From NCBI GenBank assembly GCA_965207735.1, contig OZ242296.1, positions 1,536,001 through 1,600,000 of the forward strand: a stretch of 64,000 nucleotides of DNA. The letters run 5' to 3'. Both the position numbers and the translations under genes were made by a program. Under the pieces are notes generated by a model. The model was not told the DNA's origin, searched no databases, and worked only from the letters and a program-made list of their open reading frames with translations. This DNA comes from Candidatus Versatilivorator sp. (GTDB lineage Bacteria > Acidobacteriota > Terriglobia > Versatilivoradales > Versatilivoraceae). This document shows, piece by piece, positions 831 to 24,666 of this stretch (position 1 is the first letter of the stretch; every line of letters starts with the position of its first letter).

Positions 831-1027
831 CGCCTAAGCTCGGATAGGGTTTCGTCGATAAACCAATCAAGGAAGCGAAAACGTGGTTTTGAGAATCATC
901 TCCTCAAGTTGGTCTGGTATGATTTGTCTCTTTTGGCTGTTATCTGTTAGAGACTTTACAGTTTGTGCAAATAGTGTCAGCAGGGTGCTGAGCATTGCGT
1001 CTCACTTCTACGAAAGCAAAAAACTCA

Positions 1028-2188
1028 ATGGAAAATCAATCTTCTGAAAGCACAATTGAGGGACGGCAGATCACGAGGATATCCCTGAACGAACTCTTGC
1101 TAGATCGTAACAACCCTAGATTTGGCCTACGGGGTAACGAAAAAAGCCAACAAGAAATTCTAGATCATATTGTAGAGAAATTTGGAGTAAACGACGTTCT
1201 GAGTTCACTGGCGGTGAATGGATATTTTGAGGCTGAGCCCATTGTCTGTCGCCGGATCCCCAAAACAAAAAGGGCTGTTGTTGTTGAAGGCAACCGACGT
1301 CTAGCAGCTTGCCTAATTATTCTCGGAGACAAGAGAGCGGCAAGCCAAGAGAAACGGTCGGCGGAATTTAGCGCTCTCTGGAATGAGAATAACCGCCCAA
1401 GGATCAACCCGGTACCGGCAATATTGTTCGAGGAGAAGGAACAGCAGAAAGCAATTCTTTCCTATCTGGGTGTGCGCCACATCGCGTCCTCACAGCCATG
1501 GGATTCGTATGCGAAGGCCGCTTGGGTTGCTCAGGTAGTCGAAGAAAGTGGTCTGGACATCCAGAGTGTTTCTCAGATGATCGGTGACCAGCACCAAACG
1601 GTGAACCGGCTTTTAGAGGGTTACTATTTGGTTCAACAATTGGTTCGGCAGGGCAGGTTTCATCCACAAAACAGTATTCGACGAGGCCGTGGAAGTGTTA
1701 CGGAATACCCGTTCTCATGGGTTTACACCATACTTGGCTATACGACAGTTCGTAAGTTTCTCGAGCTCTCTGATGGGGGTGCCCCACAAAATCCGGTCGC
1801 CGAAGACAAGTTGGACGGAGGCGGGTTGCTTTTTCGAGTTATGTTCGGCGACAAGTCGCGTGGCAGAAGTGCTGCTTTAGAAGATTCCCGTGAACTTGGC
1901 GACCTAGCAACTGCCCTTGCCAGTGATGAAAAGATTCGTCTTTTGGAACAGGGGAAGACGCTTGCTGAAATTGAAACTCTTACTAAGCCAGTCGAAAGGC
2001 GCCTGTCTGACGGACTTGACCTTGTGCGCGTCACGTTGAGGGATTTAGTTGCCAGTTTGTCTGAACAAGATATTCAGCAGAGCACTGCAACTAATTTCGT
2101 GAAGATTTCTAGCGGTAATCGCAAGATGGCCGTGGAACTCGATAGAAAGCTCAAGGAGATTGCATTTGGTGGGGATGACGAAGACTGA
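1028..2188 (+). CDS. ParB/Srx-like N-terminal domain protein
   Basis: LLLDRNNPRF and VVVEGNRRLAA (ParB GxRR motif); ATG at 1028 preferred over TTG at 995. Confidence 0.8.
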   Translation: MENQSSESTIEGRQITRISLNELLLDRNNPRFGLRGNEKSQQEILDHIVEKFGVNDVLSSLAVNGYFEAEPIVCRRIPKTKRAVVVEGNRRLAACLIILGDKRAASQEKRSAEFSALWNENNRPRINPVPAILFEEKEQQKAILSYLGVRHIASSQPWDSYAKAAWVAQVVEESGLDIQSVSQMIGDQHQTVNRLLEGYYLVQQLVRQGRFHPQNSIRRGRGSVTEYPFSWVYTILGYTTVRKFLELSDGGAPQNPVAEDKLDGGGLLFRVMFGDKSRGRSAALEDSRELGDLATALASDEKIRLLEQGKTLAEIETLTKPVERRLSDGLDLVRVTLRDLVASLSEQDIQQSTATNFVKISSGNRKMAVELDRKLKEIAFGGDDED

Positions 2189-3155
2189 CCCATATAGCCT
2201 TCGCCACCAAGCCCAGCGCTCGGCCAACCATGCCGATCAAGCCGAATTCTCTGCGCTAAAGAACGGTACAACGGTCATTGATACTGGAATTTATCATGGG
2301 CGTGTTGCAGGCGCGATGGACGATTTTGAAGCCCCAGATCTGGCTGTCCGCGAGTTATGGCATAACGAAGATCTAAAATTCGACAGCGCAGTAGGGAAGA
2401 TATACGAGGAGATCGAGCGTCGCAGCAAGACCATGGAAACAACTTATCCGTTTTCAATTGAAGAAGGATCATTAATTCACACACCAAGCAACAACTCAGT
2501 TTACGAATTTCTTTTGGCTATCTGTAATGCAGAGACTCTCACGGCGGGTGAACATGTATGGCTTCCCCGCTTGTTTGAGCGTCTTTCTGCTCGTTTGGTC
2601 GCAGCTTGTTTCGGCTCTGACACGCAATTTGTGCATACTGGAGCACCCAGAGATCCAGAAATCGGCACCTCCTTTAAGACAGCAATGCTGACTGTTGCTG
2701 AACGAACGTCGGAGTGGAACTGGGGCCCAGACGAGGGTCTGCCGGATGAGCCTGTCAACGGCGATGGTGGCTGCGATTTCGTTGTTTGGCCCGTTCCCCC
2801 AGACGGACGAAAGATAGGCCAGCTTTTCGTGCTCGGTCAGTGTGCTTGCGGTAACGATTGGCAAACGAAATTCAAGGATCTAACAATCAGGAGTCTATCT
2901 AAGTGGTTCAATCCACTATCGATTGTCGAACCAGTTCGATGTTTCTCAACCCCGTTCCATGTTACCGACGCAATGCTAAGAGAGGCGAGCCGTGAAGGGG
3001 GAATTGTCTTTGATCGCGCACGACTGGTTAGACTTAGCCGGCAAGTGGCAGAAGATAGGATTGAATCCGAAATTCAAAGCAAAATGAATCGTCTTATTGA
3101 ATTAGTGATCGGACAGCGCTACCAAATATCAGGAAGCGACTCTGCAACGGCCTGA
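2175..3155 (+). CDS. Putative Mrr-like PD-(D/E)xK nuclease-fold protein
   Basis: GDGGCDFVVW...VLGQCACGNDWQTK resembles the Mrr D..QxK core; start overlaps the stop of the ParB-like gene. Confidence 0.6.
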   Translation: MTKTDPYSLRHQAQRSANHADQAEFSALKNGTTVIDTGIYHGRVAGAMDDFEAPDLAVRELWHNEDLKFDSAVGKIYEEIERRSKTMETTYPFSIEEGSLIHTPSNNSVYEFLLAICNAETLTAGEHVWLPRLFERLSARLVAACFGSDTQFVHTGAPRDPEIGTSFKTAMLTVAERTSEWNWGPDEGLPDEPVNGDGGCDFVVWPVPPDGRKIGQLFVLGQCACGNDWQTKFKDLTIRSLSKWFNPLSIVEPVRCFSTPFHVTDAMLREASREGGIVFDRARLVRLSRQVAEDRIESEIQSKMNRLIELVIGQRYQISGSDSATA

Positions 3156-4072
3156 AATAATTGGGGAGGCACTGCATTTCCTATAGCTTCGTATTTCTGG
3201 CGCATCGTTCCGGTCTCAGGAAAGACTATATCGCTATCGAAGCCTTGCAGACACGCAGCCTCACGAAAAGAGAAACGTCTTCGAGGAGCATCTGACGACC
3301 AAACCCATTTATCAGTGTGGATGCGTAATAACTGGGGACTCAGTGGATGTAAAGGCATGTGTCGAGGATGGCTAACGATCGTCTTGCTCGGCTCTGACCA
3401 GTCGCGGCGCCTATTACGTGACATATAGTACCAATGGAATCCATCATCGAAGAATTCACCTTCTGGCCAAATTGTCATGCCAGCCAATGCTTCTGCAATT
3501 GTCTTAAATCTATTCTCCCCTTCTCGAGTGTGGGTCGGCTTTGGAAAGGAATAGCGCATGTCGATATCGCTCCTAATTCCAACGACAAATATTCTGACTC
3601 GTTCTTGGGCTACTCCGTAGCTAACCGCATTCAATAGATCATGTGACACCCTATATCCGGCCATCCGGAAACGAGTGATTTGATTGTGCAGGAGGTGTCT
3701 GAAATCACTACGCCGCATGCCCGGCACATTCTCGACTATGAATGCTTTCGGGCGTACCTGCCTGAGCGCACGATCAAATTCACGATATAAGTAGTTAATT
3801 CTTCTATTTGATACTCGGGCGCCCCCTTGGCTGAAGCCTTGGCAAGGGTAACATCCAACTAAAAGATCTGCCGTAGGGAATGACGGGATTTCGCCAACGT
3901 CTTTGCACTGAAAATCTGTTTCCGGCAAATTGGCTTCGTAGAGTTCTTTGGCAAACTGTGAAATATCGTTGGCGAATACAACTTCGAAGCCGGCACTCAG
4001 TAAGCCCGTATCAGAGCCGCCGCACCCGCTAAACAAGGAGACGGCTTTTGCTTTTGTCTTAGTTTTCAGCAA
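3119..4072 (-). CDS. DNA (cytosine-5)-methyltransferase
   Basis: SLFSGCGG (motif I), YPCQGFS (IV), ENVPG (VI), QERVRIF (VIII), IGNAVPP (X); exact start uncertain (TTG). Confidence 0.95.
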   Translation of the reverse strand: MLKTKTKAKAVSLFSGCGGSDTGLLSAGFEVVFANDISQFAKELYEANLPETDFQCKDVGEIPSFPTADLLVGCYPCQGFSQGGARVSNRRINYLYREFDRALRQVRPKAFIVENVPGMRRSDFRHLLHNQITRFRMAGYRVSHDLLNAVSYGVAQERVRIFVVGIRSDIDMRYSFPKPTHTREGENRFKTIAEALAGMTIWPEGEFFDDGFHWYYMSRNRRRDWSEPSKTIVSHPRHMPLHPLSPQLLRIHTDKWVWSSDAPRRRFSFREAACLQGFDSDIVFPETGTMRQKYEAIGNAVPPQLFQAVAESLPDIW

Positions 4073-5916: not shown

Positions 5917-7149
5917 TTACTCCAAGGGCTCCAGATCCTCCCCCGACCCCTGGGCCAGGTAACGCGCCCAATCGTCCATCAGGAGACGCCGGCGCTCGAA
6001 CAGGTCGGAGCGGGCATAGGCCGCCTCGACCCGATTCCGAACCACATGCGCAAGGGCGGCCCCGATCACCTCCCGGGGGTGGTCGGTCTCCTCGGCCGCC
6101 CAGTCCCGGAAGCTGGACCTGAACCCGTGCGGCACGGCTGCAATCCCCTGCTCGCGGACCAGCCATCGCAGCTCCTTGTCACTGAGCGGCTTCCCCTGCC
6201 CACGGGTGAACACCAGAGGACCGGCTCCTTTGCCCAGGGTCCGTGCCGCCTCGAGAATCTCCAGGACACGTCCACACAGCGGCACCCGGTGCTTCCGGTT
6301 GGCCTTCATCCGACTGGCCGGGACGGTCCATACACCAGCGTCCCGATCGATCTCCTCCCACTCGGCCCAGCGCACCTCACTCCACCTGGCTGCCGTAAGC
6401 ACCAGGAACTCGAAGGCCAGCTTGGCCACCTCCTCTGCCGTCGATGCCTGCACCGTCCGGATGGCCGCGGCCACCTCCCGATGCGGCAAGGCCCGCATGT
6501 GCTCGGTAACGTCATGTTGGGGACCCAGGACCGGGCCGATCCTGTCGCAGGGGTTGTCGATCCTGTACTCCATGGCTACGGCCCATTCCAGGACCGCACG
6601 CAGGCGCTGGCGCACCCGCCGGGCGCTGGAGGCCTTCCGGTGCCAGATAGGGGTGAGGATCTCAAGCAGGTCGGCGCTGGTGACCTCGGAGACCGGCATC
6701 TTGCCGATGCGCGGGAAGGCGAACCGCCTCAGGCTGGACATCCACTCGCGGTGGTGACGCCGGCCTCGCCATCCGTCCCGCTTCTGTTCCAGCACACGCG
6801 AGGCGGCTTCGGCGAAGGTGGGGATACCCTCGGTGCGTCGCTTCTCGGCAAGAGGATCTCCGCCCTCACGGGCCAGCTTGCGGTTGGCCAGGGCCTTCTC
6901 CCTGGCCTCGGCCAGGGAAACCAGGGCAAGGCTGCCGAGACCGAGCTCCCGGCGACGGCCACGGACGACGAGGCGTTGAATCCAACTGCGGGTTCCGCTG
7001 GGCTGGACGAAGAGGTACAATCCATTTCCATCGGCGTATCTTCCGGGCGGAGCGGAGCGCAGGAAGGCGGCCGAGAGGGCGTTGCTGGGGTGGCAACCGG
7101 TGGGTTTGGTCTTGGGTCGGAACGGAGCGAAGTCCGTTACAGTATCCAT
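5917..7149 (-). CDS. P4-type tyrosine integrase with arm-DNA-binding domain
   Basis: YADGNGLYL arm-binding motif; catalytic TAAR, HGFRSSFR, LAH, AAY; ATG at 7149. Confidence 0.93.
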   Translation of the reverse strand: MDTVTDFAPFRPKTKPTGCHPSNALSAAFLRSAPPGRYADGNGLYLFVQPSGTRSWIQRLVVRGRRRELGLGSLALVSLAEAREKALANRKLAREGGDPLAEKRRTEGIPTFAEAASRVLEQKRDGWRGRRHHREWMSSLRRFAFPRIGKMPVSEVTSADLLEILTPIWHRKASSARRVRQRLRAVLEWAVAMEYRIDNPCDRIGPVLGPQHDVTEHMRALPHREVAAAIRTVQASTAEEVAKLAFEFLVLTAARWSEVRWAEWEEIDRDAGVWTVPASRMKANRKHRVPLCGRVLEILEAARTLGKGAGPLVFTRGQGKPLSDKELRWLVREQGIAAVPHGFRSSFRDWAAEETDHPREVIGAALAHVVRNRVEAAYARSDLFERRRLLMDDWARYLAQGSGEDLEPLE

Positions 7150-7355
7150 CCCCCCATTATATGGGGGATGGCAGTGGATTGCAAGGGATGTTGGTGGCAA
7201 GACAAGCCACGGCAGGACTTATATAAGACACTCATAAATAAGACAGTTATAGACTCTACTGGACGGCACTAGACATCACTGGAATTTGAATGGCCGTTGC
7301 GGCGGCGGCAGCAATCCTCCGCTGCTTGACATCAAACGGCTCACCGTCCACTATT

Positions 7356-8585: not shown

Positions 8586-10613
8586 TCAAGGACCCGTCTG
8601 GGTCAGCCAGGCAAGGACTTGCTCCCGAGAACGCTCGTCCGACTCAATCTCCAACAGGTCGGCCTTGCCGGCCAGCTCATAGGCCTGCCGAAACCAATCG
8701 GTACTGAAGGACTCCCCTGCATTGTGGATCAGCAGCCGGGTGGCCGGCGCCAGCATGGCGGCGGTCTTGAAGTCCCCCGCCCGCCTCAGCACCGGAACGT
8801 AGAGATGCTCCAGGTAGGACTGGTCCTCCTCGCTCGAGAAACGGGACACGTCCACCAGGGTGCGGTTTAGCCGCGGAGCAAGCGCCCGGGCCAGCAGGCA
8901 CCACAGCCCTCCCTCCCCTACACCGACCAGATTCACCCGGGCCACCTCCGGCCGGCTCTCGAGGTAGGCGATGGCTGTCAGAATGTCCTGAACCCGATTG
9001 GAATCGTCCGTCCGATTGTAGGTAGTGAAGAACGGGTCGCTCATGTCCCGCTTGGCTCGAGCCGCGCCGGTGTTGAAGGCGTCAATGGACATCACCAGGT
9101 GACGCCGAGCCAGCAGCGGCCGGACCCAGGATGCGCCCGGCGCCTCAAGCGCTGCCTTGCCCTCGGGGTGAACCAGCAGCGTGGCCGTCAGATTCCTGCG
9201 CTTCCCTCTTGGAAACCACAGATCGGCCGGCACCTTGTCGCCACGGCCCCCGCGCCCGATATGAAACTCCCGGCTCGCACCCGGCTTGGGAGATGAAACG
9301 GGAACAGCCACCACTTGGCCGGGATCGGGATAGCCGACTGCCAGGGCGTGCCGCAGCGCCGGAGACATAAGCTCCCGGAACCGGGACAGGCCTTCGGAGT
9401 CCCGGGGCCGGAGCCCGTCGATCTGCCGCCGGTAGCTGTCCTTCAGAGAGGCCAGCATCTCCTCCTCGGTGACCGCGGATTCGGGAAGCTCTCGACCGAA
9501 GAAGACCAGCACTTCCGAGGGACTCCCCAGGCGAAAACGCCTCTCGGCAAATTGGCTGGCGTCGCTCTCCCCCAGCAGCCAGCGGCCGAACCAGGCATAG
9601 ACGGACTCCCGGCTCTCCCGGTTGAAGTTGTGGTCGGCCATGGCCTGCATGGTCTGCACCTTGTGGCCGGCGCCCTGCAGGCGATAGACGCTCTGGACGG
9701 CGGGAAATTCCACCCGGGGAGTCTCCCGTGTCCAATCCCCCGAGGCCGAGACCATCAACAGCGGCCGGGGAGCCATCAGGGCCGCGATCTCCATGTTGTT
9801 GGTGTCGAGCCTGAGGTTGGCCTGGTTCTCGCAGATGCAGCCGCCCTGCATGTAGTGGGAAATCATGTTGACCGGCGCCGACACCTTGACTCGATCGTCA
9901 ACCGCGGTCAGCAGGAAAGTCTGGGTCCCCCCTCCCGAGGCCCCGGTGCAGCCAATCCGGCCGGGGTCCACGTCGGGCAGCGACTGCAGGAAATCCACCG
10001 AGCGAATGCTGTTCCAGAGCTGAATCCCCAGCCAGCCGATGCCCCACAGGCTGAAGCTCCTGTCCAGAGGACGGCGATGGTCCTTGACCTGGCGGCTGTC
10101 GTTGTAGGCCAGCATGTCGTAGGCAAAGACCACGTGGCCCTGCCGGGCCAGGTTGATCGCGAGGCCCGGCATCGAAGCGAGGGACTGATTTACCAGCCGC
10201 CCGTAAGCCCAATGGCCATGGGGAGTCAGGATTCCCGGAAAGGGGCCCTTCTTCCCCAACGGACGGTAAAGATTCCCGGCGACAAAAAATCCCGGATAGC
10301 TCTCAAAGAAGACCTTCTCGATGGAATAGTCCCCCTTGGAGACCTTCCCGAAGATCCGCGCCTTGAGGGGACTCTTCTCCACCGGCGGACACAGCCCGGC
10401 GCTGACCTCTATCTGCCGCCGCAGATCCCCGGCCCGCTTCAACCAGGCCTCCTCGGTCAGAAACGGCTGGAAGGTGTAAGGCAGGTGCAGGTGGCGAATT
10501 CGCGTGACCCGCCGGTCGATCTCCGGTAGACCGGTCAGCCCCTGGCTCTCGGCAGGAGCGCTCAGCAACAGAAGGGCCAGACCCGCGAGCAGAAGATGTT
10601 TGCCAGAGATCAT
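8586..10613 (-). CDS. Secreted acetylxylan-esterase-like alpha/beta hydrolase (two hydrolase modules)
   Basis: Signal peptide; PHGHW; GCTGASGGGTQ nucleophile elbow; degenerate second module. Confidence 0.85.
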   Translation of the reverse strand: MISGKHLLLAGLALLLLSAPAESQGLTGLPEIDRRVTRIRHLHLPYTFQPFLTEEAWLKRAGDLRRQIEVSAGLCPPVEKSPLKARIFGKVSKGDYSIEKVFFESYPGFFVAGNLYRPLGKKGPFPGILTPHGHWAYGRLVNQSLASMPGLAINLARQGHVVFAYDMLAYNDSRQVKDHRRPLDRSFSLWGIGWLGIQLWNSIRSVDFLQSLPDVDPGRIGCTGASGGGTQTFLLTAVDDRVKVSAPVNMISHYMQGGCICENQANLRLDTNNMEIAALMAPRPLLMVSASGDWTRETPRVEFPAVQSVYRLQGAGHKVQTMQAMADHNFNRESRESVYAWFGRWLLGESDASQFAERRFRLGSPSEVLVFFGRELPESAVTEEEMLASLKDSYRRQIDGLRPRDSEGLSRFRELMSPALRHALAVGYPDPGQVVAVPVSSPKPGASREFHIGRGGRGDKVPADLWFPRGKRRNLTATLLVHPEGKAALEAPGASWVRPLLARRHLVMSIDAFNTGAARAKRDMSDPFFTTYNRTDDSNRVQDILTAIAYLESRPEVARVNLVGVGEGGLWCLLARALAPRLNRTLVDVSRFSSEEDQSYLEHLYVPVLRRAGDFKTAAMLAPATRLLIHNAGESFSTDWFRQAYELAGKADLLEIESDERSREQVLAWLTQTGP

Positions 10614-10723: not shown

Positions 10724-13360
10724 TTATGGCCGCACCTTCAATTCGCTTGCCGAAATTCGCTTATGAATGTCAACCGCCACCTTCAGCACTTCCGCAGGGG
10801 CGCGCACTGACTCCCCAGAGCGCTGCCGGAGGGCAAGGATCAGGGGTCCCAGGGCACCGGCCTTGGTGCGATCTCCTGAAAGAATCTTGGCAACTTCGCG
10901 CTCAGAAGCGCCGACTGCGATGAAATGAATCCCGAGCCTGATCATGCAGCCAACCGGAACTTGATGGGTTGCCGGGAACAAAGCGTATGCCGAACGAAAC
11001 GCTTCCATGGCGTTCGCTGTTTCCCCACGCGCCATCATCGCGATCGCTCTCACACACCCTCTTTGTGACTCAATCCCGGCCTTCAATTGTCCCCGCAGCA
11101 AAGCGAGCTTCTCTTCAAGCTCCTCACACACCTTGTCGGCCTCTTCTATCCGGCCGGTCTCGACCAGACTCATGCTCTTGAACACCAGGGCTAGCGGCAC
11201 AACGTGCGGCTCCGTATCACTTTCTCCGGCGCCACCGACGAATCCAATCAACTCATCGTACGACTCTATTGCCCCTGCGAAATCGTCCATTGCACCTTGC
11301 ATGAACGCCCGATTCATGAATGCGCTGATTACCAAGCGTTTGATTTGAATGTCCTTAGTCGTTCGAAAACCGCCGATCACCTCATCGAGTGCTGCAAGAG
11401 CGGTCTCATCGTCGCCGAGTTGCAATCGCGCGATGAAAGCCTTTCGGGTCAACGCGATGGCGATTGTTTCCTGCAATTCGGCCGCCTCATGGCCTCGAAA
11501 ACGATCCAGAATGTTGTCGAACATTGAAACGGCAGTCTCGTAGTCACCGAGTTGCCTTTTGATTTCCGCCGTCAAAAGCAGGCCTGCTCCGACAAATTGT
11601 TGGAACTGGGGATGGTTGTATTTTCCGAACCAATCGACTAGCTCCCCTGCACTGGCGACGGCCTTGGGAAAATCGCCAAGTTCAAAATGCGAGGCCGATT
11701 TCCGATAAAGAATCAGCGCGGATCGAATAAGAATGGACGTGTCTCGGCTGCCTCGAAGCCGATCGAGAATCTCCGAGGCGACTGCAGTCACCTTCTCGAA
11801 ATCTCCCATGCCGAAATAGGCTTTAACCCTCAATTGCGCCAAAATCACCAAGTCATGCTCCTGGGAGGTCTTGGAACGATAGGTCCAACCCGCGGCAACA
11901 TACTGATCGATGCATTCGATCGCTCGCATCCATTCCCCAACCCGAAGTGCGGATTCAATCTCCTCCCGAAGACGGATTTGAGCCTCCGAACCACGATAAT
12001 CCAAGGCTGTCTCCGACACACGTTGCAGGCGATCCCAGACGATTCTTGAATCCAGGTCCGTTTCGACCGGTCGTTTGGTGAGAGCACGGTCGATTCCACT
12101 CAGCAAGGAGGGCGAGTCCTTCACATCGGACCAAAGCGTGTCAAATACCGGATTAAGGACGGAAGTGTCGTAAAACGCCACCATGAACCGGATGAGACTC
12201 TCTACCACCGCCGCTTCGTCACGCTCGCGACGAAGCTTGTAATAGATGCTGTAGAGGGGTTCTGCGGCGCAATAGAGCCGCTTCTTACTACCTGTCCAGC
12301 GGTCCGGCGCCACCACTCCGCGATCAATCAAACGCCCGAGCATGGTCGAGACCACACGAACGTCCATGCGGGCGCGCTCGGCGATCTCGCCGGTGCTTGA
12401 AGGCTGCCAGAGGTCCATGATTGCGATGTAAACCCGCCTCTCGCTCTTCGGCAAGGCTTCCAGATGGCCGCGGAAGTACTCGGTTTGTTCGTCGATCAGG
12501 CGGACGAGCTCTTCCATCAACGCACGAAGCGAGCGGTGTTTGGAGAAACCGGCCACGACCACCAGCAGCCGGGGATTTCCGCCCGTCAGGATCTCAAGCG
12601 GCCGGATTTCCCGCGCACTGACCCGATCTCGGCTGACCGCCTGCCACAAACGGTGGCATTCTTCGGTCGCCAACGGCGTAAGGTCGATGACTCGGAACAA
12701 TTCGAAAAAGGGTTCTTCCGCGTCGTCCAGTCCCTCGAACCGGCTGGTTGCCGAAGCAAGCATCATGATCTGGGACTCGGACTGGAGCGCTGCTCGAAGC
12801 TGCCAGCCGAAATCGTCGTCGACACTTCCGCAGAGCGTTTGCAGGTTCTCGACCATAAGCACGAGCTTCCGGCCGATGCGTTCCGCCGCGTTGAGAACCA
12901 CGGCGCGGGCACGGTCCCCCAGGGCTCGCTCGCGCCAGCGTCCGGATAAATCCGCATGCGTTTCTCGCAGCTCCCGGGCAAGTTCCGGATAACTTGCCGC
13001 ACTCTCTCTTGCCAGATGGAACAGCGTCTCCAACCAGAAGTCCGCCACATCGAATATTTCATGGCTCTCTTCCATGAATCGAACCGGCAACAGGAATCGG
13101 GAGAACTTGTCTTTGGTACGCAGCTCCGCCGCGGCGCGAGCCAGCAGCATCGTTTTTCCTCTGCCGCGCGGAGCAACGATCAGGACATGCTGGCAAGAAG
13201 GCGATTCGATGTTCCCCTGCAGTATTTCGAGCACGGTATCGAGCTCGCGGTTTCTGACTACGAACTGATCCACCACCTTTTGGTCGGACTGGAACATGCC
13301 CGGATTGAACTCTCGGACCAAATTCCCCGGGGGTCTCGCGCCGGGGATTTTCCTGGTCAT
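10724..13360 (-). CDS. STAND-like P-loop ATPase with HTH and C-terminal TPR repeats
   Basis: APRGRGKT Walker A, LMVENL Walker-B-like, TGGNPR GxP motif, GEIAERARM HTH, repeated TPR-like helices. Confidence 0.85.
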   Translation of the reverse strand: MTRKIPGARPPGNLVREFNPGMFQSDQKVVDQFVVRNRELDTVLEILQGNIESPSCQHVLIVAPRGRGKTMLLARAAAELRTKDKFSRFLLPVRFMEESHEIFDVADFWLETLFHLARESAASYPELARELRETHADLSGRWRERALGDRARAVVLNAAERIGRKLVLMVENLQTLCGSVDDDFGWQLRAALQSESQIMMLASATSRFEGLDDAEEPFFELFRVIDLTPLATEECHRLWQAVSRDRVSAREIRPLEILTGGNPRLLVVVAGFSKHRSLRALMEELVRLIDEQTEYFRGHLEALPKSERRVYIAIMDLWQPSSTGEIAERARMDVRVVSTMLGRLIDRGVVAPDRWTGSKKRLYCAAEPLYSIYYKLRRERDEAAVVESLIRFMVAFYDTSVLNPVFDTLWSDVKDSPSLLSGIDRALTKRPVETDLDSRIVWDRLQRVSETALDYRGSEAQIRLREEIESALRVGEWMRAIECIDQYVAAGWTYRSKTSQEHDLVILAQLRVKAYFGMGDFEKVTAVASEILDRLRGSRDTSILIRSALILYRKSASHFELGDFPKAVASAGELVDWFGKYNHPQFQQFVGAGLLLTAEIKRQLGDYETAVSMFDNILDRFRGHEAAELQETIAIALTRKAFIARLQLGDDETALAALDEVIGGFRTTKDIQIKRLVISAFMNRAFMQGAMDDFAGAIESYDELIGFVGGAGESDTEPHVVPLALVFKSMSLVETGRIEEADKVCEELEEKLALLRGQLKAGIESQRGCVRAIAMMARGETANAMEAFRSAYALFPATHQVPVGCMIRLGIHFIAVGASEREVAKILSGDRTKAGALGPLILALRQRSGESVRAPAEVLKVAVDIHKRISASELKVRP

Positions 13361-14601
13361 GGCGCTGTTTCTCCAGAGTCGTCATTGGTGCGCCGGCGTT
13401 CCAGCGGCACGTAGTGCCCACGGAAGCGAGCCGACCACCAGTCTCGAAGCAAACGCGAAGGAAAGCTGTAGCCTTCTTCGGTGCTTTCGAGATATCCGTC
13501 GTGAATCAGAACCTCGAGGGTGTCTGCAATCCGGACAGACGGATTGTCGGTGAGCCCGGAGGACAACGTCGCAAGTCGGCGCCTTGCCCCATCCGTAAAC
13601 ACTCCTTGAGTAGCAGTTTCCGCCAGGACGTGCATGGCGAGCGAATAGCTGTCGTTGTCGAGAGCTTCCTTGAGGCGCGTCTCGTAGTGGACGAGATCGG
13701 TCTGTCCCCAAGGCCCCAGGAGTGCGGTGCGATAGACCTGAGCGACATCTTTCACCGTCACATGCTTCCCCCCATGCATTGTCGAGAAATCTCTCAAGCG
13801 TGCGAAGAAGGACTGCACGTGATGGGGAATCCCGATGCCGAGTGCCTCATACACCGCCTCAGCCACCCCGCCCGCAATGTGCAATCGGTGGCTCCGCGCA
13901 AGCCGCTCGATGCACGCAACGCTCACCTCCCTGCTCCATGGCTCCAAGCGCAGGGGGAACAGATGATTGATGCGGTCAGGAATTCCGATCCTTCTCACCA
14001 AAGGGCTCAGCCCGATGCTGCCCGATACGATGAGAACGAGCGATTCCTCTTCAAGTGACTGCAGCACGCCCCGCAGCCAACTCAGAAACTCGTCGACGCG
14101 CCGCTTGTCGCCGTCGCGATTGAGCATGCGCTTGAGGAAGATGGGCAGTTCGTCAATGATCAAGAGCACCGGCTGCTCGTGGGATGCGCAGTTGAACAAC
14201 AATTGTTCTCCGTGACGTCTCCAGCTTCCGGCATCCAACCCGGCACGGATTTTCACGCTGAAGTCCAGCGCACTAATTTCTTCGACATTGCCTTTCAGCA
14301 CACGCGTCATCGTGCGTGCAAAGCGCGATGCGATGGACCCAACAGGATGCGCTGCCCTGGCGATTTCAGCAATTGCATCCTCTGCGCAAGTTGCACCCTC
14401 GACGTCCGCGAACAGAAAGATCCAACCCTCGGACTCGAGCCGGGATCCGAGCTCACGCAGGATGCTTGTTTTTCCCATGCGCCGCTGCCCGGTCAGCAAT
14501 ACATGGTTCCGCTCGCGAACCCGCGTCTCGAGCACGTCCAATTCGCGCTCCCGGTCAAAGAAATCTTTGCCGCATACCCAACGGCCGGTGGATGACCTCA
14601 T
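13357..14601 (-). CDS. AAA/STAND-like P-loop ATPase with C-terminal winged helix
   Basis: FFDRERE, GQRRMGKT, LIIDELP, GIPHHVQ; ATGA overlap with the downstream gene. Confidence 0.88.
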   Translation of the reverse strand: MRSSTGRWVCGKDFFDRERELDVLETRVRERNHVLLTGQRRMGKTSILRELGSRLESEGWIFLFADVEGATCAEDAIAEIARAAHPVGSIASRFARTMTRVLKGNVEEISALDFSVKIRAGLDAGSWRRHGEQLLFNCASHEQPVLLIIDELPIFLKRMLNRDGDKRRVDEFLSWLRGVLQSLEEESLVLIVSGSIGLSPLVRRIGIPDRINHLFPLRLEPWSREVSVACIERLARSHRLHIAGGVAEAVYEALGIGIPHHVQSFFARLRDFSTMHGGKHVTVKDVAQVYRTALLGPWGQTDLVHYETRLKEALDNDSYSLAMHVLAETATQGVFTDGARRRLATLSSGLTDNPSVRIADTLEVLIHDGYLESTEEGYSFPSRLLRDWWSARFRGHYVPLERRRTNDDSGETAP

Positions 14602-14637: not shown

Positions 14638-14666
14638 AATGTAGATAACATCGAAAGCGTTGTCAA
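14638..14666 (-). promoter_or_regulatory. Sigma70-like promoter of the ATPase pair
   Basis: Minus strand TTGACA-N17-TACATT, 36 bp upstream of the ATG at 14601. Confidence 0.6.
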
Positions 14667-14988
14667 CAATATTGTTGTCAACAAGACCGTGTAGTTCATC
14701 CCGCTCTTGGCTGAGACCATGCTCACCGAAGAAAACGTTGAACCGGACCTGTAATTCCGCGCGATCTGCAATTCACTTCCGAAATCGGCCCGCTACTGGC
14801 CACCGGATAAGCTTGGAACCGCAAAGAAGCAGCCGAAAGAGTCCGCTCCCAACTGATCTCATGACTGACCAGTTGATCTCGGGTGGGGCGACAGCCTGGG
14901 CGGAGAAACTATTGAGATGAGGAGTTGAGTTACGGAGACATGAACGCGAAAATAGAGCCTTACTATTCGACGATCACCGGGAGTCAAA

Positions 14989-15537
14989 ATGACTGAAGAC
15001 CTTCAGAAGTTGCGTTACCCGATCGGCCAATTTGAACCTCCTTCCCGCGTAGACCAGGATCAGATCGTGAGGTGGATCAACGACATTGAAGCCCTCCCTG
15101 CCAATCTCAGGAAGGCCGTCAAGGGATTGACGGACACCCAACTGGACACGCCCTATCGTCCCGGGGGCTGGACGATCCGCCAGGTGATTCACCACTTGCC
15201 GGACAGTCATATGAACAGTTTCATGAGGTTTAAATGGGCCCTGACCGAGGACCGGCCCAGGATCAAGCCCTATTTCGAGGACCGCTGGGCGGAACTGGCG
15301 GACTACTCGGTGACTCCGGTCGCGGCATCACTGGATCTGTTGGACGGGCTCCATCGGCGCTGGGTGGCGCTCTTGCGCTCCCTGACCGGGAAGGATTTCG
15401 AAAGGACGTTCATTCACCCCGAATCCGGTCTGGTGAACCTGCCGGAAACCATTGGATCCTATGCCTGGCACGGACGGCATCACCTGGCACATATCCGGGA
15501 GGCGATCCGTCGGGAAGGGTGGAAACGTGAATGGTGA
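14989..15537 (+). CDS. yfiT: YfiT/BstA-family DinB-superfamily metal-dependent thiol transferase
   Basis: LRYPIG, TPYRPGGWTIRQVIHHLPDSH, YAWHGRHHLAHI. Confidence 0.9.
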   Translation: MTEDLQKLRYPIGQFEPPSRVDQDQIVRWINDIEALPANLRKAVKGLTDTQLDTPYRPGGWTIRQVIHHLPDSHMNSFMRFKWALTEDRPRIKPYFEDRWAELADYSVTPVAASLDLLDGLHRRWVALLRSLTGKDFERTFIHPESGLVNLPETIGSYAWHGRHHLAHIREAIRREGWKREW

Positions 15538-17385: not shown

Positions 17386-18443
17386 CTACGGCAACAATTC
17401 GAATGATTCATATGCCACTCGCTCACCACCAAGTTCCCTAACATGTTTGGTTTGGTACCGCTCAACGGTACGATGAAGTTGTTTCACCTCATCGCTACCC
17501 AAAACCGAAATTTCGGAATCCCGGTGGCCAAGTGAACCAAAGCTCGACCCTAACCGGAGACCAGCAGATTTCGATAGTAACCAGCGGTCATGAAAAGGAG
17601 CTTCCCCACTCTTTATGAAGCCCACCACTAGGACCTCAGTTTCCGGTGGAGAGTGTTCGCATAACCGTCGCCATGCAGTGGAATAGGCGTCTGACAAGCT
17701 ACTAGAACCGTTTCTCTGAGCAGCTTTCCCCGTTATCACGCGCACCTTCAAGTTCGGATCTATCTCCACTACGAGCATCACTAGTTCTAAGTCACTCGCG
17801 CGAAAGTAAGGGTCGACGATCAATACAAATTCTTCGGTGCTCGCTTTTATCCAATCCTTTAGGAATCCTATAGCCTTTTGTCGCTCCCCGCTCAGAATGA
17901 CAATTTGATTCTCATTGGTTCCAGAATCCTGCCACGTGGGGTTAAAACCCAAACGTCTACTTGACTCTGCCATCGTAAAGAAAAACTCTGCCCCCTTCAC
18001 AACGCCGTCGAACATAGATCTAAGATAGTTAACCGCCTCTGGAGTGCTCGAGTATTGCAATATTCCATTGGACAGCGCCCACGAGTACATTGGGTAGGAC
18101 GTAGACAAAGGATAGTTGCTGGCACAAGCAAGCATGTCCCGTAATCGTGGCATATACGTCGGAATCATCCTCCCTGCGTTTAGTGTTCCAAGCGCTCTCC
18201 ACGCCGCAGCTGCCAGTGTCGGATCATTCCTTAGCGAACCCAGGTCGATATTACTGCGGTGGTCTCCTATGTCCTTTCTTAGTTGGTGCGCATCTAGCTG
18301 TCTTTGTGCTCGTTTTTTGTACTCATCTCGAGCAGGATCGTCATCACACAGCACGGCCAAATTCATTGGTAAATCTGGATCAACTTTGTAAGCAAGATCA
18401 ACTATTGCGTGTTCCATAATCGCATTGCGACGATTATTGGATT
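17386..18443 (-). pseudogene. 5'-truncated large protein ending in a PLD-like nuclease-fold domain
   Basis: LIVDPYF and FHDRWLL...LGSSF motifs; lower GC; the frame is cut by the IS end at 18444. Confidence 0.6.
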
Positions 18444-19930
18444 GAGCCTTTTGCAAAATTCGCAGATAGCGGGAATTTTCACGTGGGGAAAGATCAAGGA
18501 GGGCAGGTGGAAGGAGGGGCAAGACCACTGTCTGTTGTATCATGAAGGTGTCTGAACCACATGATGAACGGAGGTGGAACTTGCCCCTTAGGGAAACCCT
18601 ATCACGACACTGGTTCCGGTTTCAACGAGAGCTGTTTCCCCTGCTGGAGGAAGTTTTGGGGCCTCTGGGAGAGCGTTACCAGCGGCTGGTGCAGGTATTG
18701 GAGTTGGTGCGGGTGGAGGAGTTGCTGCCTTACAGTCGGGGCTGGCGTGGCCGGCCGCTGGAGGATCGGGCAGTGCTGGCGCGAGCCTATCTGGCGAAGT
18801 CGATGCTGGAGGTGGCGACCACGCGGGGATTGGTGGAGCGGCTGAGGAGTGAGGGGAGGCTGCGGCGGCTGTGCGGCTGGGAGAGGGCGTGGGAGGTACC
18901 GAGCGAGTCGACCTTCTCGCGGGCCTTTGCGGAATTCGCTGAGAGCGACCTGCCGGGGCGTTTGCACGAGGCATTGCTGGAGGAGACGCTGAAGGGCCAC
19001 TTGGCGGGGCATGTGTCGAGGGACTCGACGGCGATTGCGGGACGGGAAAAGCCAGCGGCCAAGGCTGCGCCGGAGGCCAAGCGGAAACGCCGGCGGGGCC
19101 GGCCGCCGAAGGGCGAGCGACGGCCCAAGCGGTTGAGCCGGCTGGAGCGGCAGGGGTCGATGACGCTGGAGGAAATGTTGAAGGAGTTGCCCAAGGCCTG
19201 CGACATCGGCGTCAAGCGCAACGCCAAGGGGCATCAGGAGAGCTGGACCGGCTACAAGCTACACCTCGACGCCATTGACGGCGGGATTCCGGTCAGTTGT
19301 CTGCTGACCTCGGCCTCGGTGCATGACTCTCAGGCAGCCATTCCGCTGGCGACGCTGACGGCAAGGCGGGTCGAGAGTCTCTACGACTTGATGGACAGCG
19401 CCTACGATGCGCCGGAGATCCGGGCCTTCAGTGAGAAGCTGGGGCATGTGCCGATTATTGACGTCAACCCCCGCCGAAGAGCTACCTTGAAAGCCGAGCG
19501 GAAGCGGGAGGCACTGGCCCGGCGCTGTATCGGCCAAGTGACTCCCGAGGCGCGGCGCTACCGGGAACGCTCGACGGTGGAGCGGGTCAACGGACGGCTC
19601 AAGGAGGAGTTTGGCGGGAGGCAGGTGAGGGTTCGCGGCCCCGACAAGGTGAGGTGCCACCTGATGTTCGGCATTCTGGCCCTGACGGTGGATCAGTTGA
19701 TGCGCCTGACGCTCTGAAGACCGGGTTGCCACCCCCAACCGCACAGCAGGTTCGCCCGCCTCAAGGCCGGGAGAGGGTAAGCTGTGCCTGCGTCCGGCGA
19801 CCGCTGGCCATCCGGCCATCAGATTCGGGCTTTTTCCTTCAAAAGGGTCTTTGCAGCTGGGTAGTCACCGCCGGAACATCACTGTTGCCAGCCCAATGTC
19901 ATGCCCGATTCCGAATTTTGCAAAAGGCTC
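18444..19930 (+). mobile_element. IS5/IS1182-like insertion sequence
   Basis: Perfect 19-bp TIRs GAGCCTTTTGCAAAATTCG; single DDE transposase; family assignment tentative. Confidence 0.88.
18542..19717 (+). CDS. DDE transposase
   Basis: VPSESTFSR, RDSTAI, GYKLH, MDSAYD, RSTVERVNGRLK; start uncertain. Confidence 0.9.
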   Translation: MKVSEPHDERRWNLPLRETLSRHWFRFQRELFPLLEEVLGPLGERYQRLVQVLELVRVEELLPYSRGWRGRPLEDRAVLARAYLAKSMLEVATTRGLVERLRSEGRLRRLCGWERAWEVPSESTFSRAFAEFAESDLPGRLHEALLEETLKGHLAGHVSRDSTAIAGREKPAAKAAPEAKRKRRRGRPPKGERRPKRLSRLERQGSMTLEEMLKELPKACDIGVKRNAKGHQESWTGYKLHLDAIDGGIPVSCLLTSASVHDSQAAIPLATLTARRVESLYDLMDSAYDAPEIRAFSEKLGHVPIIDVNPRRRATLKAERKREALARRCIGQVTPEARRYRERSTVERVNGRLKEEFGGRQVRVRGPDKVRCHLMFGILALTVDQLMRLTL

Positions 19931-22452: not shown

Positions 22453-23592
22453 TCAATAAATGCCGGGAATGATTCGATACTTCACCCGCGCCTGATACTC
22501 TGCCCACTTTTCGGCACCGTATTTCTCGGCACAGCACCTGTCGTCGTCACGCTGACGGAAAATGAACTGCAGGACGATGAAGACAAAGTAGGTCCAGGCC
22601 CAGGGATTGGTGAAGTAGCCGAATGCCAGGGCAATGGACAGGGAAATGAACCCTTCGCCCATGTAGTTGAAGTGGCGGGCGACACCCCAAAGACCACTGC
22701 ACAGGATCTTGCGGTCACCGGCTTCGATGGTTTCAGGCTCGATGAGCCCGAGAAACTTGCGCTCGGGCCATCGTTTGAATGTGTATTTCTGCAAGTTCGT
22801 GCCGCGCGAGATACCCCACCCCAACAGGAACAGCCCAGCCGTTCCGATGAGCCAGACGTAGGTCCATGCCGGGGAGAATCCGGGGTCCGGGTAAGCGGCC
22901 ATGCCCCACAACGGGAGGATGAACAGCCACCCGTAGACCATGAGGCCACCCCAGAACATCTTGAAGCCGAGATTCTCATGGATCACATCGTAGGTGTATA
23001 GCTGGACGCGCTCAAAGATGAAGTAGTCCAGAACGTAGAATGTAAAGAACGCCGCGAACAGGAGGACGCCTGGATTGGAGTCCTGGCCAAAGAGTTTGTA
23101 GTGGTAGGCAGCCCCGGACAGGGCGTTGAGCGACAACATCGTGCCACCGACGACATAGAAATACATCTTGACGTCGAAGCGCTCACTGAAGAACGACAGC
23201 TCCTGGGTGCGCCCGAACCACAACGCTAGGATCGGATTCTTTACCTTGCCTTGCGGCTGGCTGAACACCGCCAGGAACGTAAAGATGGTGGTAAAGACCG
23301 TTCCGCCTGCCACCGCATAGATCGAGGACCGGTAGAACCACTCACGTGACATCCCGGTGAGCTCGAGAGCCCACACGACGAGCGCGATCGCAAACACCAG
23401 AATACCGTTCAGCCGATAGTTGCGGGGCTTGCCGGTCTCCAGATTGATGACATAGCCGGGAACCCGCTTTCCCGGCAGAATGAGCTGTGCCAGCAAAAAC
23501 ACGGCAAAGATCGCCAGCGGGGTGAAAAAACCCGCAATCGCTTCCGTCCGCGAAAGCTCGAAAAGGTGGCCAATACCAAGCCATTCAATCAT
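22453..23592 (-). CDS. ERG4/ERG24-family sterol reductase
   Basis: Multi-TM; YRLNG, YDVIHENLGFK, LCSGLWGVARHFNYMGE, RQRDDDRCCAEKYG, VKYRIIPGIY. Confidence 0.9.
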   Translation of the reverse strand: MIEWLGIGHLFELSRTEAIAGFFTPLAIFAVFLLAQLILPGKRVPGYVINLETGKPRNYRLNGILVFAIALVVWALELTGMSREWFYRSSIYAVAGGTVFTTIFTFLAVFSQPQGKVKNPILALWFGRTQELSFFSERFDVKMYFYVVGGTMLSLNALSGAAYHYKLFGQDSNPGVLLFAAFFTFYVLDYFIFERVQLYTYDVIHENLGFKMFWGGLMVYGWLFILPLWGMAAYPDPGFSPAWTYVWLIGTAGLFLLGWGISRGTNLQKYTFKRWPERKFLGLIEPETIEAGDRKILCSGLWGVARHFNYMGEGFISLSIALAFGYFTNPWAWTYFVFIVLQFIFRQRDDDRCCAEKYGAEKWAEYQARVKYRIIPGIY

Positions 23593-23636
23593 GACCGAAT
23601 ACCCCTTCCTCCAGTGACGCGGTCATCAGAACAAGC

Positions 23637-24557
23637 TCATTTTTCCGGGATACAACCCAGTCTCGTGAACGGAATCAGCTTTGGCACCGAGGCCTGGTAC
23701 TTGCTGTAGGCGGGGTATTTTTCGCCGGAAATCTGCTCTCCGAGTCGTGTGGAGCCTTGAAAAACCAGTATCAACAGAACGCAGCCCAGACCCGTCCAGT
23801 GCCAGAACTGGCCTGAAGTGGAGACGGCAAATGCGTAGAACGTCACCCACATTCCCATCTCACAGAAATAGCTGGGGTGACGGCAGAATCGAAACAGGCC
23901 GCTGTCCATGAACGGCCGCGCCACTTCGCCCCCCTCTTGAATCAGACGTTTCTTGTTCTGTTGAAACCGCCACATCTGCGCATCGGCGATGCTTTCGAAA
24001 GTCAGCAATGCCAGAAATACCACGACGGCAACGAAATCCAGCCAGCCCATGGGTCGCTCGGCATACGCCCAGGCCTGATGAATGGGCGAGGTGAACAGCC
24101 ACACAACCGCCATCGGACCGATTGCGATGACAATTACGTTCATCAGTTGAAATTGCAGGCTGCTCATCTGTTTTCTGAGATAGATCCACCGATAGTCTTC
24201 GCCGCCAATCCAGTACCCTCCCTTGCGGGCGTAGTTGAAGGTCAGTCGTATCGCCCACATGGTCGCCAACAGGGTCATGACGTTGACGCGAGCCGATTGA
24301 AACTCCAGATCCAAAGCAACGATCAGGCAGTACACCGCCGGGAGGACCGACCATAGCCGGTCCACCCAGGAATACTCTCTCGTGAGGATTGAGAGCACCC
24401 AGCAGGTTGTGGCCAGGACGGTGCACAGATCCAGTGCGGATCCGTACGGCGTGCCGACGAGCGGGTGATCGATGAAGTTGAGGGAATTCATGAAGTACTC
24501 CAATGCGACGTCGTCCTCCAAGGCCAGCCGCAAGGCCTTGAGATGGCTACGTGCCAT
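23637..24557 (-). CDS. DUF1295 / steroid 5-alpha-reductase-like membrane protein
   Basis: YSWVDRLWS, GEDYRW, ADAQMWRF, GLFRFCRHPSYF; true start may be the ATG at 24491. Confidence 0.88.
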   Translation of the reverse strand: MARSHLKALRLALEDDVALEYFMNSLNFIDHPLVGTPYGSALDLCTVLATTCWVLSILTREYSWVDRLWSVLPAVYCLIVALDLEFQSARVNVMTLLATMWAIRLTFNYARKGGYWIGGEDYRWIYLRKQMSSLQFQLMNVIVIAIGPMAVVWLFTSPIHQAWAYAERPMGWLDFVAVVVFLALLTFESIADAQMWRFQQNKKRLIQEGGEVARPFMDSGLFRFCRHPSYFCEMGMWVTFYAFAVSTSGQFWHWTGLGCVLLILVFQGSTRLGEQISGEKYPAYSKYQASVPKLIPFTRLGCIPEK

Positions 24558-24666
24558 GTTCACTGTTCAGTTAATATAGCAGTTTTCTTAAATATATGCT
24601 ATAAGAGTGATATTTACTGTACAGCAAAAATCCAGAATGTGGGTGCTTGACGCGGAGGTTGAGGAT

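What the first reader, a model, noticed from the sequence alone, without database searches (positions are those of the whole stretch)
10724..14601. Translationally coupled pair of STAND-like ATPases with a TPR sensor but no visible effector
Seen: a 414-aa ATPase-wHTH with canonical IIDE Walker B overlaps (ATGA) an 878-aa ATPase-HTH-TPR protein whose Walker B reads MVEN; both have GxP motifs. Known: Avs/NLR-type proteins carry an N-terminal effector on one STAND-TPR chain. Here both chains begin almost directly at the NTPase. Inference: a sensor/helper heteromeric NLR-like system whose output may be DNA binding or NTP depletion.
Basis: partly seen in the sequence, partly recalled or inferred. 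Interest (0 to 1): 0.7.

Follow-up and report, generated by a model that had tools for sequence, protein, structure and literature searches.

The report
Effector-less paired-ATPase immune sensor cassette
Two overlapping genes for ATP-binding switch proteins, one ending in a fast-changing repeat array, travel together across many bacterial phyla with their own palindromic control site, and here they sit in a slot that close relatives fill with anti-phage systems, so the pair is likely an unnamed immune sensor that would have to act without any recognisable toxic domain.

Summary
Observation confirmed: a 414-aa ATPase (A) overlaps (ATGA) an 878-aa ATPase-wHTH-TPR protein (B). The pairing is ancient and near-obligate. 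B follows A in 80 of 80 close loci, 15 of 15 loci in a 251-genome sample, and 23 of 23 testable loci of a clade only 25% identical. Their trees are congruent across nine phyla. B's 43-aa repeat array runs from none to many copies; no effector domain was found. Against defence: neighbours of distant copies show no PADLOC enrichment (2 of 112 vs 1 of 85). Best reading: a self-repressing NLR-like immune sensor in which B senses and binds the operator, and A is the active ATPase of a predicted mixed oligomer acting on DNA. No library or paper searched names the pair. The scan found this cassette before in five other genomes.

The parts
13357..14601 (-). Gene A, 414 aa: AAA+/STAND-type NBD-helical domain-winged helix. 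Canonical Walker A (RRMGKTS) and Walker B (DE), conserved R177, GIP motif; no sensor and no effector domain
10724..13360 (-). Gene B, 878 aa: NBD-HD-WHD (Walker B EN, GGNPR), helical arm, TPR-like array, conserved C-terminal cap
13357..13360 (-). ATGA stop/start overlap (translational coupling inferred)
   Evidence: same -4 overlap in 49 of 78 related loci
12224..12448 (-). MarR/TrmB-like winged helix of B (residues about 305-379), predicted operator-binding domain
11096..11983 (-). TPR-like array of B (residues about 460-755, 43-aa period), hypervariable in sequence and copy number
10733..11092 (-). Conserved C-terminal helical cap of B (ends in a V-R-A-P-x-E-V motif), kept even when the array is absent
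14659..14682 (.). Palindromic operator: CAAC-N6-GTTG unit (14664-14677) flanked by two GTTG-W-CAAC junctions, 15-bp period, overlapping the -35 box
14638..14666 (-). Sigma-70-type promoter-like site: TTGACA, 17 nt, TACATT
   Evidence: 1 found, 1.5 expected in shuffles, so weak alone; TTGAC[AG] in 77 of 79 and with a -10 in 49 of 79 upstream regions
8586..10613 (-). Flanking esterase-family gene; one conserved border of the variable slot, not part of the cassette
14989..15537 (+). Flanking DinB-family gene; other conserved border of the variable slot, not part of the cassette

Best explanation
This is a horizontally spread two-gene cassette that likely works as a self-repressing, NLR-like anti-phage sensor, in which B is predicted to sense and to bind the cassette's own operator while A would be the active ATPase of a mixed A-B oligomer that itself carries out the response. 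Shown: the pairing, the domain anatomy, the hypervariable repeat array, the operator over the promoter, and the defence-hotspot slot. Inferred steps: (1) at rest, B (probably with A) binds the CAAC-N6-GTTG repeats through its MarR-like winged helix and keeps expression low; (2) a foreign protein binds B's TPR array and opens its NOD, whose Glu-to-Asn Walker B would hold ATP rather than turn it over; (3) open B nucleates a mixed AAA+ oligomer with A, using the conserved helix-3 arginines (A R177, B R189) as contacts between subunits; (4) with no enzyme domain available, the output is most likely an ORC/Cdc6-like clamp on DNA that stalls replication or transcription and arrests the infected cell. 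Step 4 is the weakest.
For: Pairing: 80 of 80; 15 of 15 A loci in 251 genomes and 15 of 17 B genes; 23 of 23 in the distant clade. Congruent trees: 34 of 42 supported A splits are in the B tree, random maximum 3 shared splits. Sensor pattern: mean identity A 0.67, B core 0.71, B repeats 0.31; B is 235-1745 aa against A 403-416 aa. Operator: 67 of 79 against 3% background; kept in 9 of 12 distant paired loci and absent before both solo B genes; present before 5 of 5 second-copy B genes; top site in the genome. B's winged helix matches MarR structures. Folds: A is nearest SSO1545/PAB2304, then ORC/Cdc6 including the DNA-bound Cdc6/Orc1 heterodimer 2qby; B is nearest the STAND-TPR protein PH0952. 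Slot: 7 of 10 resolved genus relatives carry PADLOC-matching defence genes there. Nearest neighbours: 10 of 40 Pfam-assigned are TA/RM/Abi, against 0 of 39 in control regions. Precedent: the bNACHT01 clade lacks the usual effector fusions, yet bNACHT01 is antiphage and needs Walker A.
Against: There is no experimental or structural evidence that A and B bind each other. Neighbours of 24 distant loci show no PADLOC enrichment at E<=1e-50 (2 of 112 vs 1 of 85). The close-clade enrichment falls to p=0.11 under the most conservative counting, and the control came from one phylum only. Many copies sit among housekeeping genes. Four B genes lack the whole repeat array yet stay in frame, which is odd for an essential sensor. 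Two solo B-like genes exist. B keeps two acidic residues after strand 2 (F-x-E-E) that might supply a catalytic base, so B may not be slow. The canonical box-VII arginine finger is not conserved in distant A or B.
Confidence: 0.4

Rival explanations
1. A MalT/PH0952-like signal-transducing transcription regulator with no defence role: B senses a small molecule or a host (e.g. sponge) ligand, A modulates it, and the only output is transcription.
For: B's nearest structure is PH0952, described as a predicted transcription factor. B has a MarR-like winged helix and a real operator. Distant copies show no defence enrichment. Two laid runs are labelled sponge metagenome.
Against: The operator is almost private to the cassette: one strong site and two weaker ones in a 5.3-Mb genome, so there is no regulon. 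No target gene recurs beside it. Patchy presence and swapping with defence systems in one genus are unlike a metabolic regulator.
Confidence: 0.22
2. A sensor-only module that hands its signal to an effector encoded elsewhere, such as a neighbouring defence system or a conserved host protein.
For: No effector domain anywhere in the family examined. It sits beside AbiEi, IetAS and type III RM in relatives. Operator copies occur without the cassette in G279's slot and in a TA-rich island of this genome.
Against: No third gene recurs across unrelated loci. The cassette moves between nine phyla as two genes, which makes a fixed partner in trans less likely. The orphan operators can be scars of lost cassettes.
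Confidence: 0.18
3. Same sensing as the best explanation, but the output is runaway ATP hydrolysis by A that drains the nucleotide pool.
For: A keeps a complete catalytic set in 102 diverse sequences (K44 100%, D150 100%, E151 99%, R177 99%) and has no other recognisable domain.
Against: STAND/ORC-type ATPases are generally slow switches (established knowledge, recalled). No result here bears on rate. The retained winged helices point to DNA.
Confidence: 0.12
4. A toxin-antitoxin-like or selfish addiction module.
For: Autoregulated, translationally coupled two-gene operon, patchy and horizontally spread.
Against: Either gene can break first: A broken with B intact in L170 (G273), L050 and L117, and a 428-nt deletion in A in two further runs; B broken with A intact in L065 and L083. 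Some single frameshifts could be assembly errors. No terminal repeats or transposase.
Confidence: 0.08

Closest known systems
PH0952 of Pyrococcus horikoshii (STAND with TPR sensor, PDB 6mfv) and MalT
   Same: Top Foldseek match for B (E 1.2e-8, low TM-score 0.24/0.31). Same NOD-arm-TPR order and GxP motif.
   Different: PH0952 has a separate N-terminal ArsR-like effector domain and B has none. B is coupled to a second ATPase.
SSO1545 (2fna) and PAB2304 (2qen), PF01637 ATPase_2; Orc1/Cdc6
   Same: Top fold matches for A (E 2e-11 and 7e-11), then ORC/Cdc6 and RuvB. AAA+ plus winged helix, no sensor.
   Different: About 19% identity. A scores just under the PF01637 cut-off (32.5 vs 33.2). A is coupled to a TPR-bearing partner.
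nSTAND2 two-gene operon (Kaur et al. 2021, PMC8195603)
   Same: Mobile bacterial two-gene operon in which both products are STAND NTPases, proposed to form a hetero-multimer.
   Different: There, one partner has eroded NTP motifs and carries a GT4 or HEPN effector. Here both Walker A motifs are intact, there is no effector, and one partner carries TPRs.
CARD-NLR / LypABC (PMC13236601)
   Same: Two ATPase-domain proteins that interact, one an Orc1-like ATPase with TPR repeats, under transcriptional repression.
   Different: LypA and LypC carry CARD, trypsin and nuclease domains, and the repressor is a separate protein. None of these is present here.
Avs/AVAST and bNACHT (PMC13581612; bioRxiv 10.1101/2022.07.19.500537)
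   Same: Conserved NTPase with a fast-diverging C-terminal sensor. The bNACHT01 clade is the stated exception to effector fusion and bNACHT01 is antiphage.
   Different: Avs are single chains, usually with an effector domain, and bNACHT01 is a single gene. No Avs or bNACHT model matched A or B in PADLOC.

Membership tests
STAND NTPases (definition from PMC6468293) | NOD core: NBD-HD fused to a C-terminal WHD, with GxP | tested here: met
   AlphaFold2 models and Foldseek for A and B. GIP in 79 of 79 close A; GG[SN]PR in 78 of 79 close B.
STAND NTPases (definition from PMC6468293) | Arm plus repeat sensor after the NOD | tested here: met
   Met for B. A has none.
STAND NTPases (definition from PMC6468293) | Effector domain at either end (usual, not universal) | tested here: not met
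   None in A, B, 29 B homologues, or the longer A-like proteins examined.
STAND NTPases (definition from PMC6468293) | Ligand-triggered ADP/ATP switch and oligomerisation | not testable with these tools
   Needs biochemistry; the complex predictor was unavailable.
Avs/AVAST | Single chain with effector, STAND and TPR sensor | tested here: not met
   Two chains and no effector. No Avs model hit in PADLOC 2.0 at E<=0.01.
Avs/AVAST | Recognition of a phage protein and anti-phage activity | not testable with these tools
   Experiment needed.
Defence-associated STAND clades of Lee et al. 2026 (PMC13581612) | Listed among the 589 clades or 198 defence clades | tested here: inconclusive
   Six accessions of family members were absent from the 7 readable supplements. 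Three larger supplementary files could not be read.
nSTAND2 paired operon | Two adjacent STAND NTPase genes | tested here: met
nSTAND2 paired operon | One partner with eroded NTP motifs fused to a GT4 or HEPN effector | tested here: not met
   Both Walker A motifs are intact; no GT4 or HEPN. No nSTAND2 model among the hits; whether this Pfam copy holds one was not checked.
CARD-NLR / LypABC | CARD-like domain, trypsin protease and a separate effector gene | tested here: not met
   compared
PF01637 ATPase_2 (archaeal ATPase) | Score above the curated cut-off | tested here: inconclusive
   A 32.5 vs 33.2 bits, B 23.2. Many close homologues carry PF01637 in precomputed annotation.
Orc1/Cdc6 initiators | AAA+ plus winged-helix fold | tested here: met
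   (TM-score about 0.4-0.55)
Orc1/Cdc6 initiators | Conserved box-VII arginine finger | tested here: not met
   A R210 is kept in 78 of 79 close sequences but not in the distant set; none is fixed in B. The expected position is recalled, not taken from a call.
[quoted passage not shown] 2004) | Membership of that family (recalled as adjacent paired STANDs; only the name was seen, in PMC8195603) | not testable with these tools
   The original paper was not found in the library. Weak AAA_35 matches to B and in Atlas neighbours of A are a lead only.

The most novel reading that the evidence does not exclude
A bacterial paired-NLR immune system with no toxin domain at all. A pattern-recognising STAND-TPR protein and an ORC/Cdc6-like partner assemble on DNA on sensing an invader, so that the NOD's own winged helix is the effector, and the same surface represses the cassette's promoter at rest. 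It would link the ORC-type DNA-loading ancestry of STANDs directly to immunity.
Probability: 0.2. Interest if true: 0.85.

Novelty: new variant of a known kind. Interest (0 to 1): 0.58.

Why it matters
Known bacterial NLR-like receptors signal through a fused or adjacent enzyme. This large family (840 clusters at 50% identity match A at E<=1e-30; pairing not checked for those) keeps two NTPases, a variable sensor and an operator across about 25% identity, with no effector found. It is a compact, cloneable test of how an effector-less STAND pair can act, and of whether DNA binding by the NOD winged helix can be an immune output.

Tried and rejected
Complex prediction of A with B could not be run (tool unavailable), so there is no verdict. 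Search for a conserved third gene: none beyond lineage-shared housekeeping flanks and extra B copies. Effector-fused forms: one 1092-aa A-B fusion and one 700-aa A-TPR chimera. The first is a single-member cluster and both are best read as frameshift or deletion products, so I did not use them as evidence of binding. Phage carriage: no match in 50,697 phage records or IMG/VR contigs (only two patterns, so insensitive). Autonomous mobile element: no terminal repeats above 7 nt and no conserved downstream motif. Host regulon or SOS-type box: rejected because the site is nearly unique in the genome and is shared across phyla. Positive selection in the repeats: dN/dS stays below 1 where measurable, so I claim only relaxed constraint and repeat turnover. 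Expression: one RNA run holds contigs of relatives over both genes, but DNA carry-over is not excluded; not counted. The 270-aa membrane ORF behind the second genomic operator has one weak homologue in 300 other genomes; no support for it as a trans effector. An N5 spacer was tried first and was wrong; N6 is the enriched spacing. A-versus-B profile comparison aligns only the Walker A region, so they are not a recent duplication. The Atlas search of B's C-terminal cap returned no answer, and one literature search failed.
Full report
Observation. The two ORFs exist as described on the minus strand: A, 14601-13357, 414 aa, and B, 13360-10724, 878 aa, sharing ATGA. Both match AAA_16 above its cut-off; B also matches TPR models and weakly TrmB/MarR. 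At E<=0.01 PADLOC gave A only weak partial hits (mad8 2e-7, PDC-S01) and B none; NCBIfam gave A nothing and B two sub-threshold TPR hits. AlphaFold2 models (pLDDT 87.8 and 82.1) show A as NBD-helical domain-winged helix and B as the same core followed by an arm, a helical repeat array and a cap. Foldseek places A nearest PAB2304 and SSO1545, then RuvB and ORC/Cdc6. It places B nearest PH0952, then SAMD9 and Avs3, with low TM-scores. A profile of B's core matches ORC4 at Walker A and MarR regulators at the winged helix.

Pairing. Of 174 related stretches in GTDB genomes the best 80 were kept, and all 80 have B directly downstream. After dropping two loci with a broken A, the overlap is -4 in 49 of 78; A is 403-416 aa and B 235-1745 aa. 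To avoid one-sided bias I searched A and B profiles in the same 251 genomes of the phylum. A gave 15 loci in 11 genomes, each next to B. B gave 17 genes in 12 genomes, 15 next to A and 2 alone in one genome. The window's genome holds a second pair, about 25% identical. That clade has B downstream in 23 of 23 testable loci out of 34 fetched. A Clostridium plasmid carries the same arrangement. Trees of A and of B's core for 78 pairs agree: 34 of 42 supported A splits occur in the B tree, 4 conflict with supported B splits, and shuffled labels share at most 3 splits. The rows span nine phyla at 61-85% identity to the query (quick tree, unrooted). An A profile finds 840 clusters at 50% identity with E<=1e-30. 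Of the best 150, 101 are 380-445 aa, 47 are shorter and 2 are longer, neither with an effector.

Catalytic anatomy. A keeps R40, R41, K44, D150, E151, R177, S195, P259 and R309 in 97-100% of 102 diverse sequences, which fits an active ATPase (inferred). B keeps Walker A, but its Walker B is EN or DN, with the asparagine in 16 of 16 of the distant set. It also keeps two acidic residues after strand 2, so 'slow or non-hydrolysing' is likely but not certain. Both proteins have a conserved arginine in the helix after Walker B (A R177, B R189). I read it as a candidate contact between subunits; the canonical finger position is not conserved in distant members.

Sensor. Over 2080 pairs from 65 loci, mean identity is 0.67 for A, 0.71 for B's core, 0.31 for the repeat region and 0.48 for the cap. 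In the 14 closest pairs dN/dS is about 0.1-0.3 for the cores and mostly 0.3-0.65 for the repeats. The period is 43 aa in 66 of 71 close B proteins with a measurable array, distant clades also use 34-42 aa, and four B genes have lost the array in frame while keeping the cap. Pfam on 29 long, short and distant B proteins gave AAA, winged-helix and TPR-type matches; other hits were scattered low-score matches inside the repeats, and none was a whole effector domain.

Upstream of A a CAAC-N6-GTTG palindrome recurs at 15-bp period over a TTGACA box. It is present in 67 of 79 upstream regions against 180 of 6010 background windows; other spacers reach 0-6 of 79. It persists in 9 of 12 distant paired loci examined and is absent before both solo B genes. 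It precedes 5 of 5 second-copy B genes. In the second clade it is strict in 7 and relaxed in 19 of 29. In the whole genome the cassette's site scores highest (37.4), with two weaker sites (25.7, 18.8) above a shuffled maximum of 12.9 (one strand). The site therefore belongs to the cassette, not to a host regulon. B's MarR-like winged helix is the likely reader (inferred).

Context. The cassette lies between an esterase gene and a DinB-family gene. In 13 other genomes of the genus this slot could be resolved in 10. The cassette is intact in one (G274), decayed in two (G270, G273) and absent in seven. Seven of the ten carry PADLOC-matching genes there: AbiEi-AbiEii (G271); IetAS and type III RM (G270; IetS also scanned in G273); Mokosh-like helicases (G269, G279); a DrmD-like helicase (G274); weaker RmrA and QatC matches (G276). 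G275 has an AbiEi-like ORF seen by eye, and G272 and G277 had no hit. G279 keeps the operator without the cassette. Across the close clade I scanned 124 of 151 nearest ORFs: 40 had a Pfam match, 10 of them TA, RM or Abi by my classification and 3 mobile. In 92 control ORFs from 20 arbitrary regions of six genomes, 39 matched and none was clearly defence, with up to 3 arguable. Fisher p is 0.001 at face value and 0.11 at the most conservative count; kin are not independent. Against: 112 ORFs around 24 distant loci gave 2 PADLOC hits at E<=1e-50, against 1 of 85 controls. That threshold would miss small TA genes. No phage copy was found and there are no terminal repeats. Broken alleles go both ways, which argues against a toxin-antitoxin pair.

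Mechanism. I commit, at 0.4, to a self-repressing NLR-like defence sensor. B binds the operator and senses through its repeats; on triggering, B and A form a mixed oligomer in which A hydrolyses ATP; and the output is an ORC-like grip on DNA that arrests the cell. Pairing, anatomy, operator and slot are shown. Binding, ligand, oligomer and output are inferred. My overall odds for a defence role of any mechanism are about 0.65-0.7.

Literature. Searches: (126 failed); none of the listings named this pair. Read: PMC13581612 (abstract, sections 5, 15, 44; six accessions absent from 7 readable supplements; three large files unreadable, and these may list the family). Passages only: PMC8195603, bioRxiv 10.1101/2022.07.19.500537, PMC13236601, PMC6468293, PMC7159879. 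Leipe et al. 2004 was not seen. My recollection that its Npun2340/2341 family is a pair of adjacent STANDs is a lead that could lower novelty. Subscription journals are largely outside the library.

Verdict. A real, widespread, unnamed effector-less STAND pair: a new variant of a known kind. Five earlier notes of this scan describe the same cassette in other genomes and gave the lead to the operator, which I tested here. What this locus adds is the within-genus defence hotspot, the two-sided co-occurrence count, the operator's link to the paired state, and the negative result for distant neighbourhoods.

Noticed in passing
G000:C1:454089-456759 (L081:4889-8759, minus strand): Second, about 25% identical copy of the cassette in the same genome (409 aa + 882 aa with 42-aa repeats) with a degenerate operator; its clusters hold 125-130 members.
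   Followed up: partly
G000:C1:445017-445045 (L207): Second-best operator-like site in the genome, in an island with MazF, RelB-YafQ and a DUF3800 remnant, before a 270-aa membrane ORF with almost no homologues. A DUF3800 gene also follows the Clostridium plasmid pair.
   Followed up: partly
L013, L015, L027, L066, L080, downstream of B: Latescibacterota loci carry a second full B gene with its own operator: one A, two sensors.
   Followed up: partly
L163:925-2078, also L165, L167, L169: A recurrent two-gene unit (phosphoribosyltransferase plus a 192-aa unassigned protein; a SLOG/DprA-like resemblance is recalled only) fills the same hotspot in four genus relatives and has no PADLOC match.
   Followed up: no
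L168:2617-5807: XRE-IrrE peptidase gene, a 221-aa ORF and a QatC/QueC-like gene in the hotspot of G276; possibly an undescribed defence unit.
   Followed up: no
window 17386-18543 (minus): 385-aa ORF with a sub-threshold VPA1262 domain match and weak PDC-S05 hits, starting at the edge of a transposase-like ORF; probably an interrupted defence gene.
   Followed up: no
window 995-4072 and 5917-7200: Low-GC region with a C5 DNA methylase and two unassigned ORFs, followed by a phage-type integrase.
   Followed up: no
window 22453-24563 (minus): ERG4/ERG24 sterol reductase-family and DUF1295 genes in a bacterium.
   Followed up: no
window 13986-14415: A 428-nt deletion in A is seen in two other runs, and a matching deletion in G273 with B intact: a circulating A-null allele.
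   Followed up: partly
P0178 and P0290: An A-B fusion (1092 aa, single-member cluster) and an A-NTPase joined directly to a B-type TPR array and cap (700 aa).
   Followed up: partly
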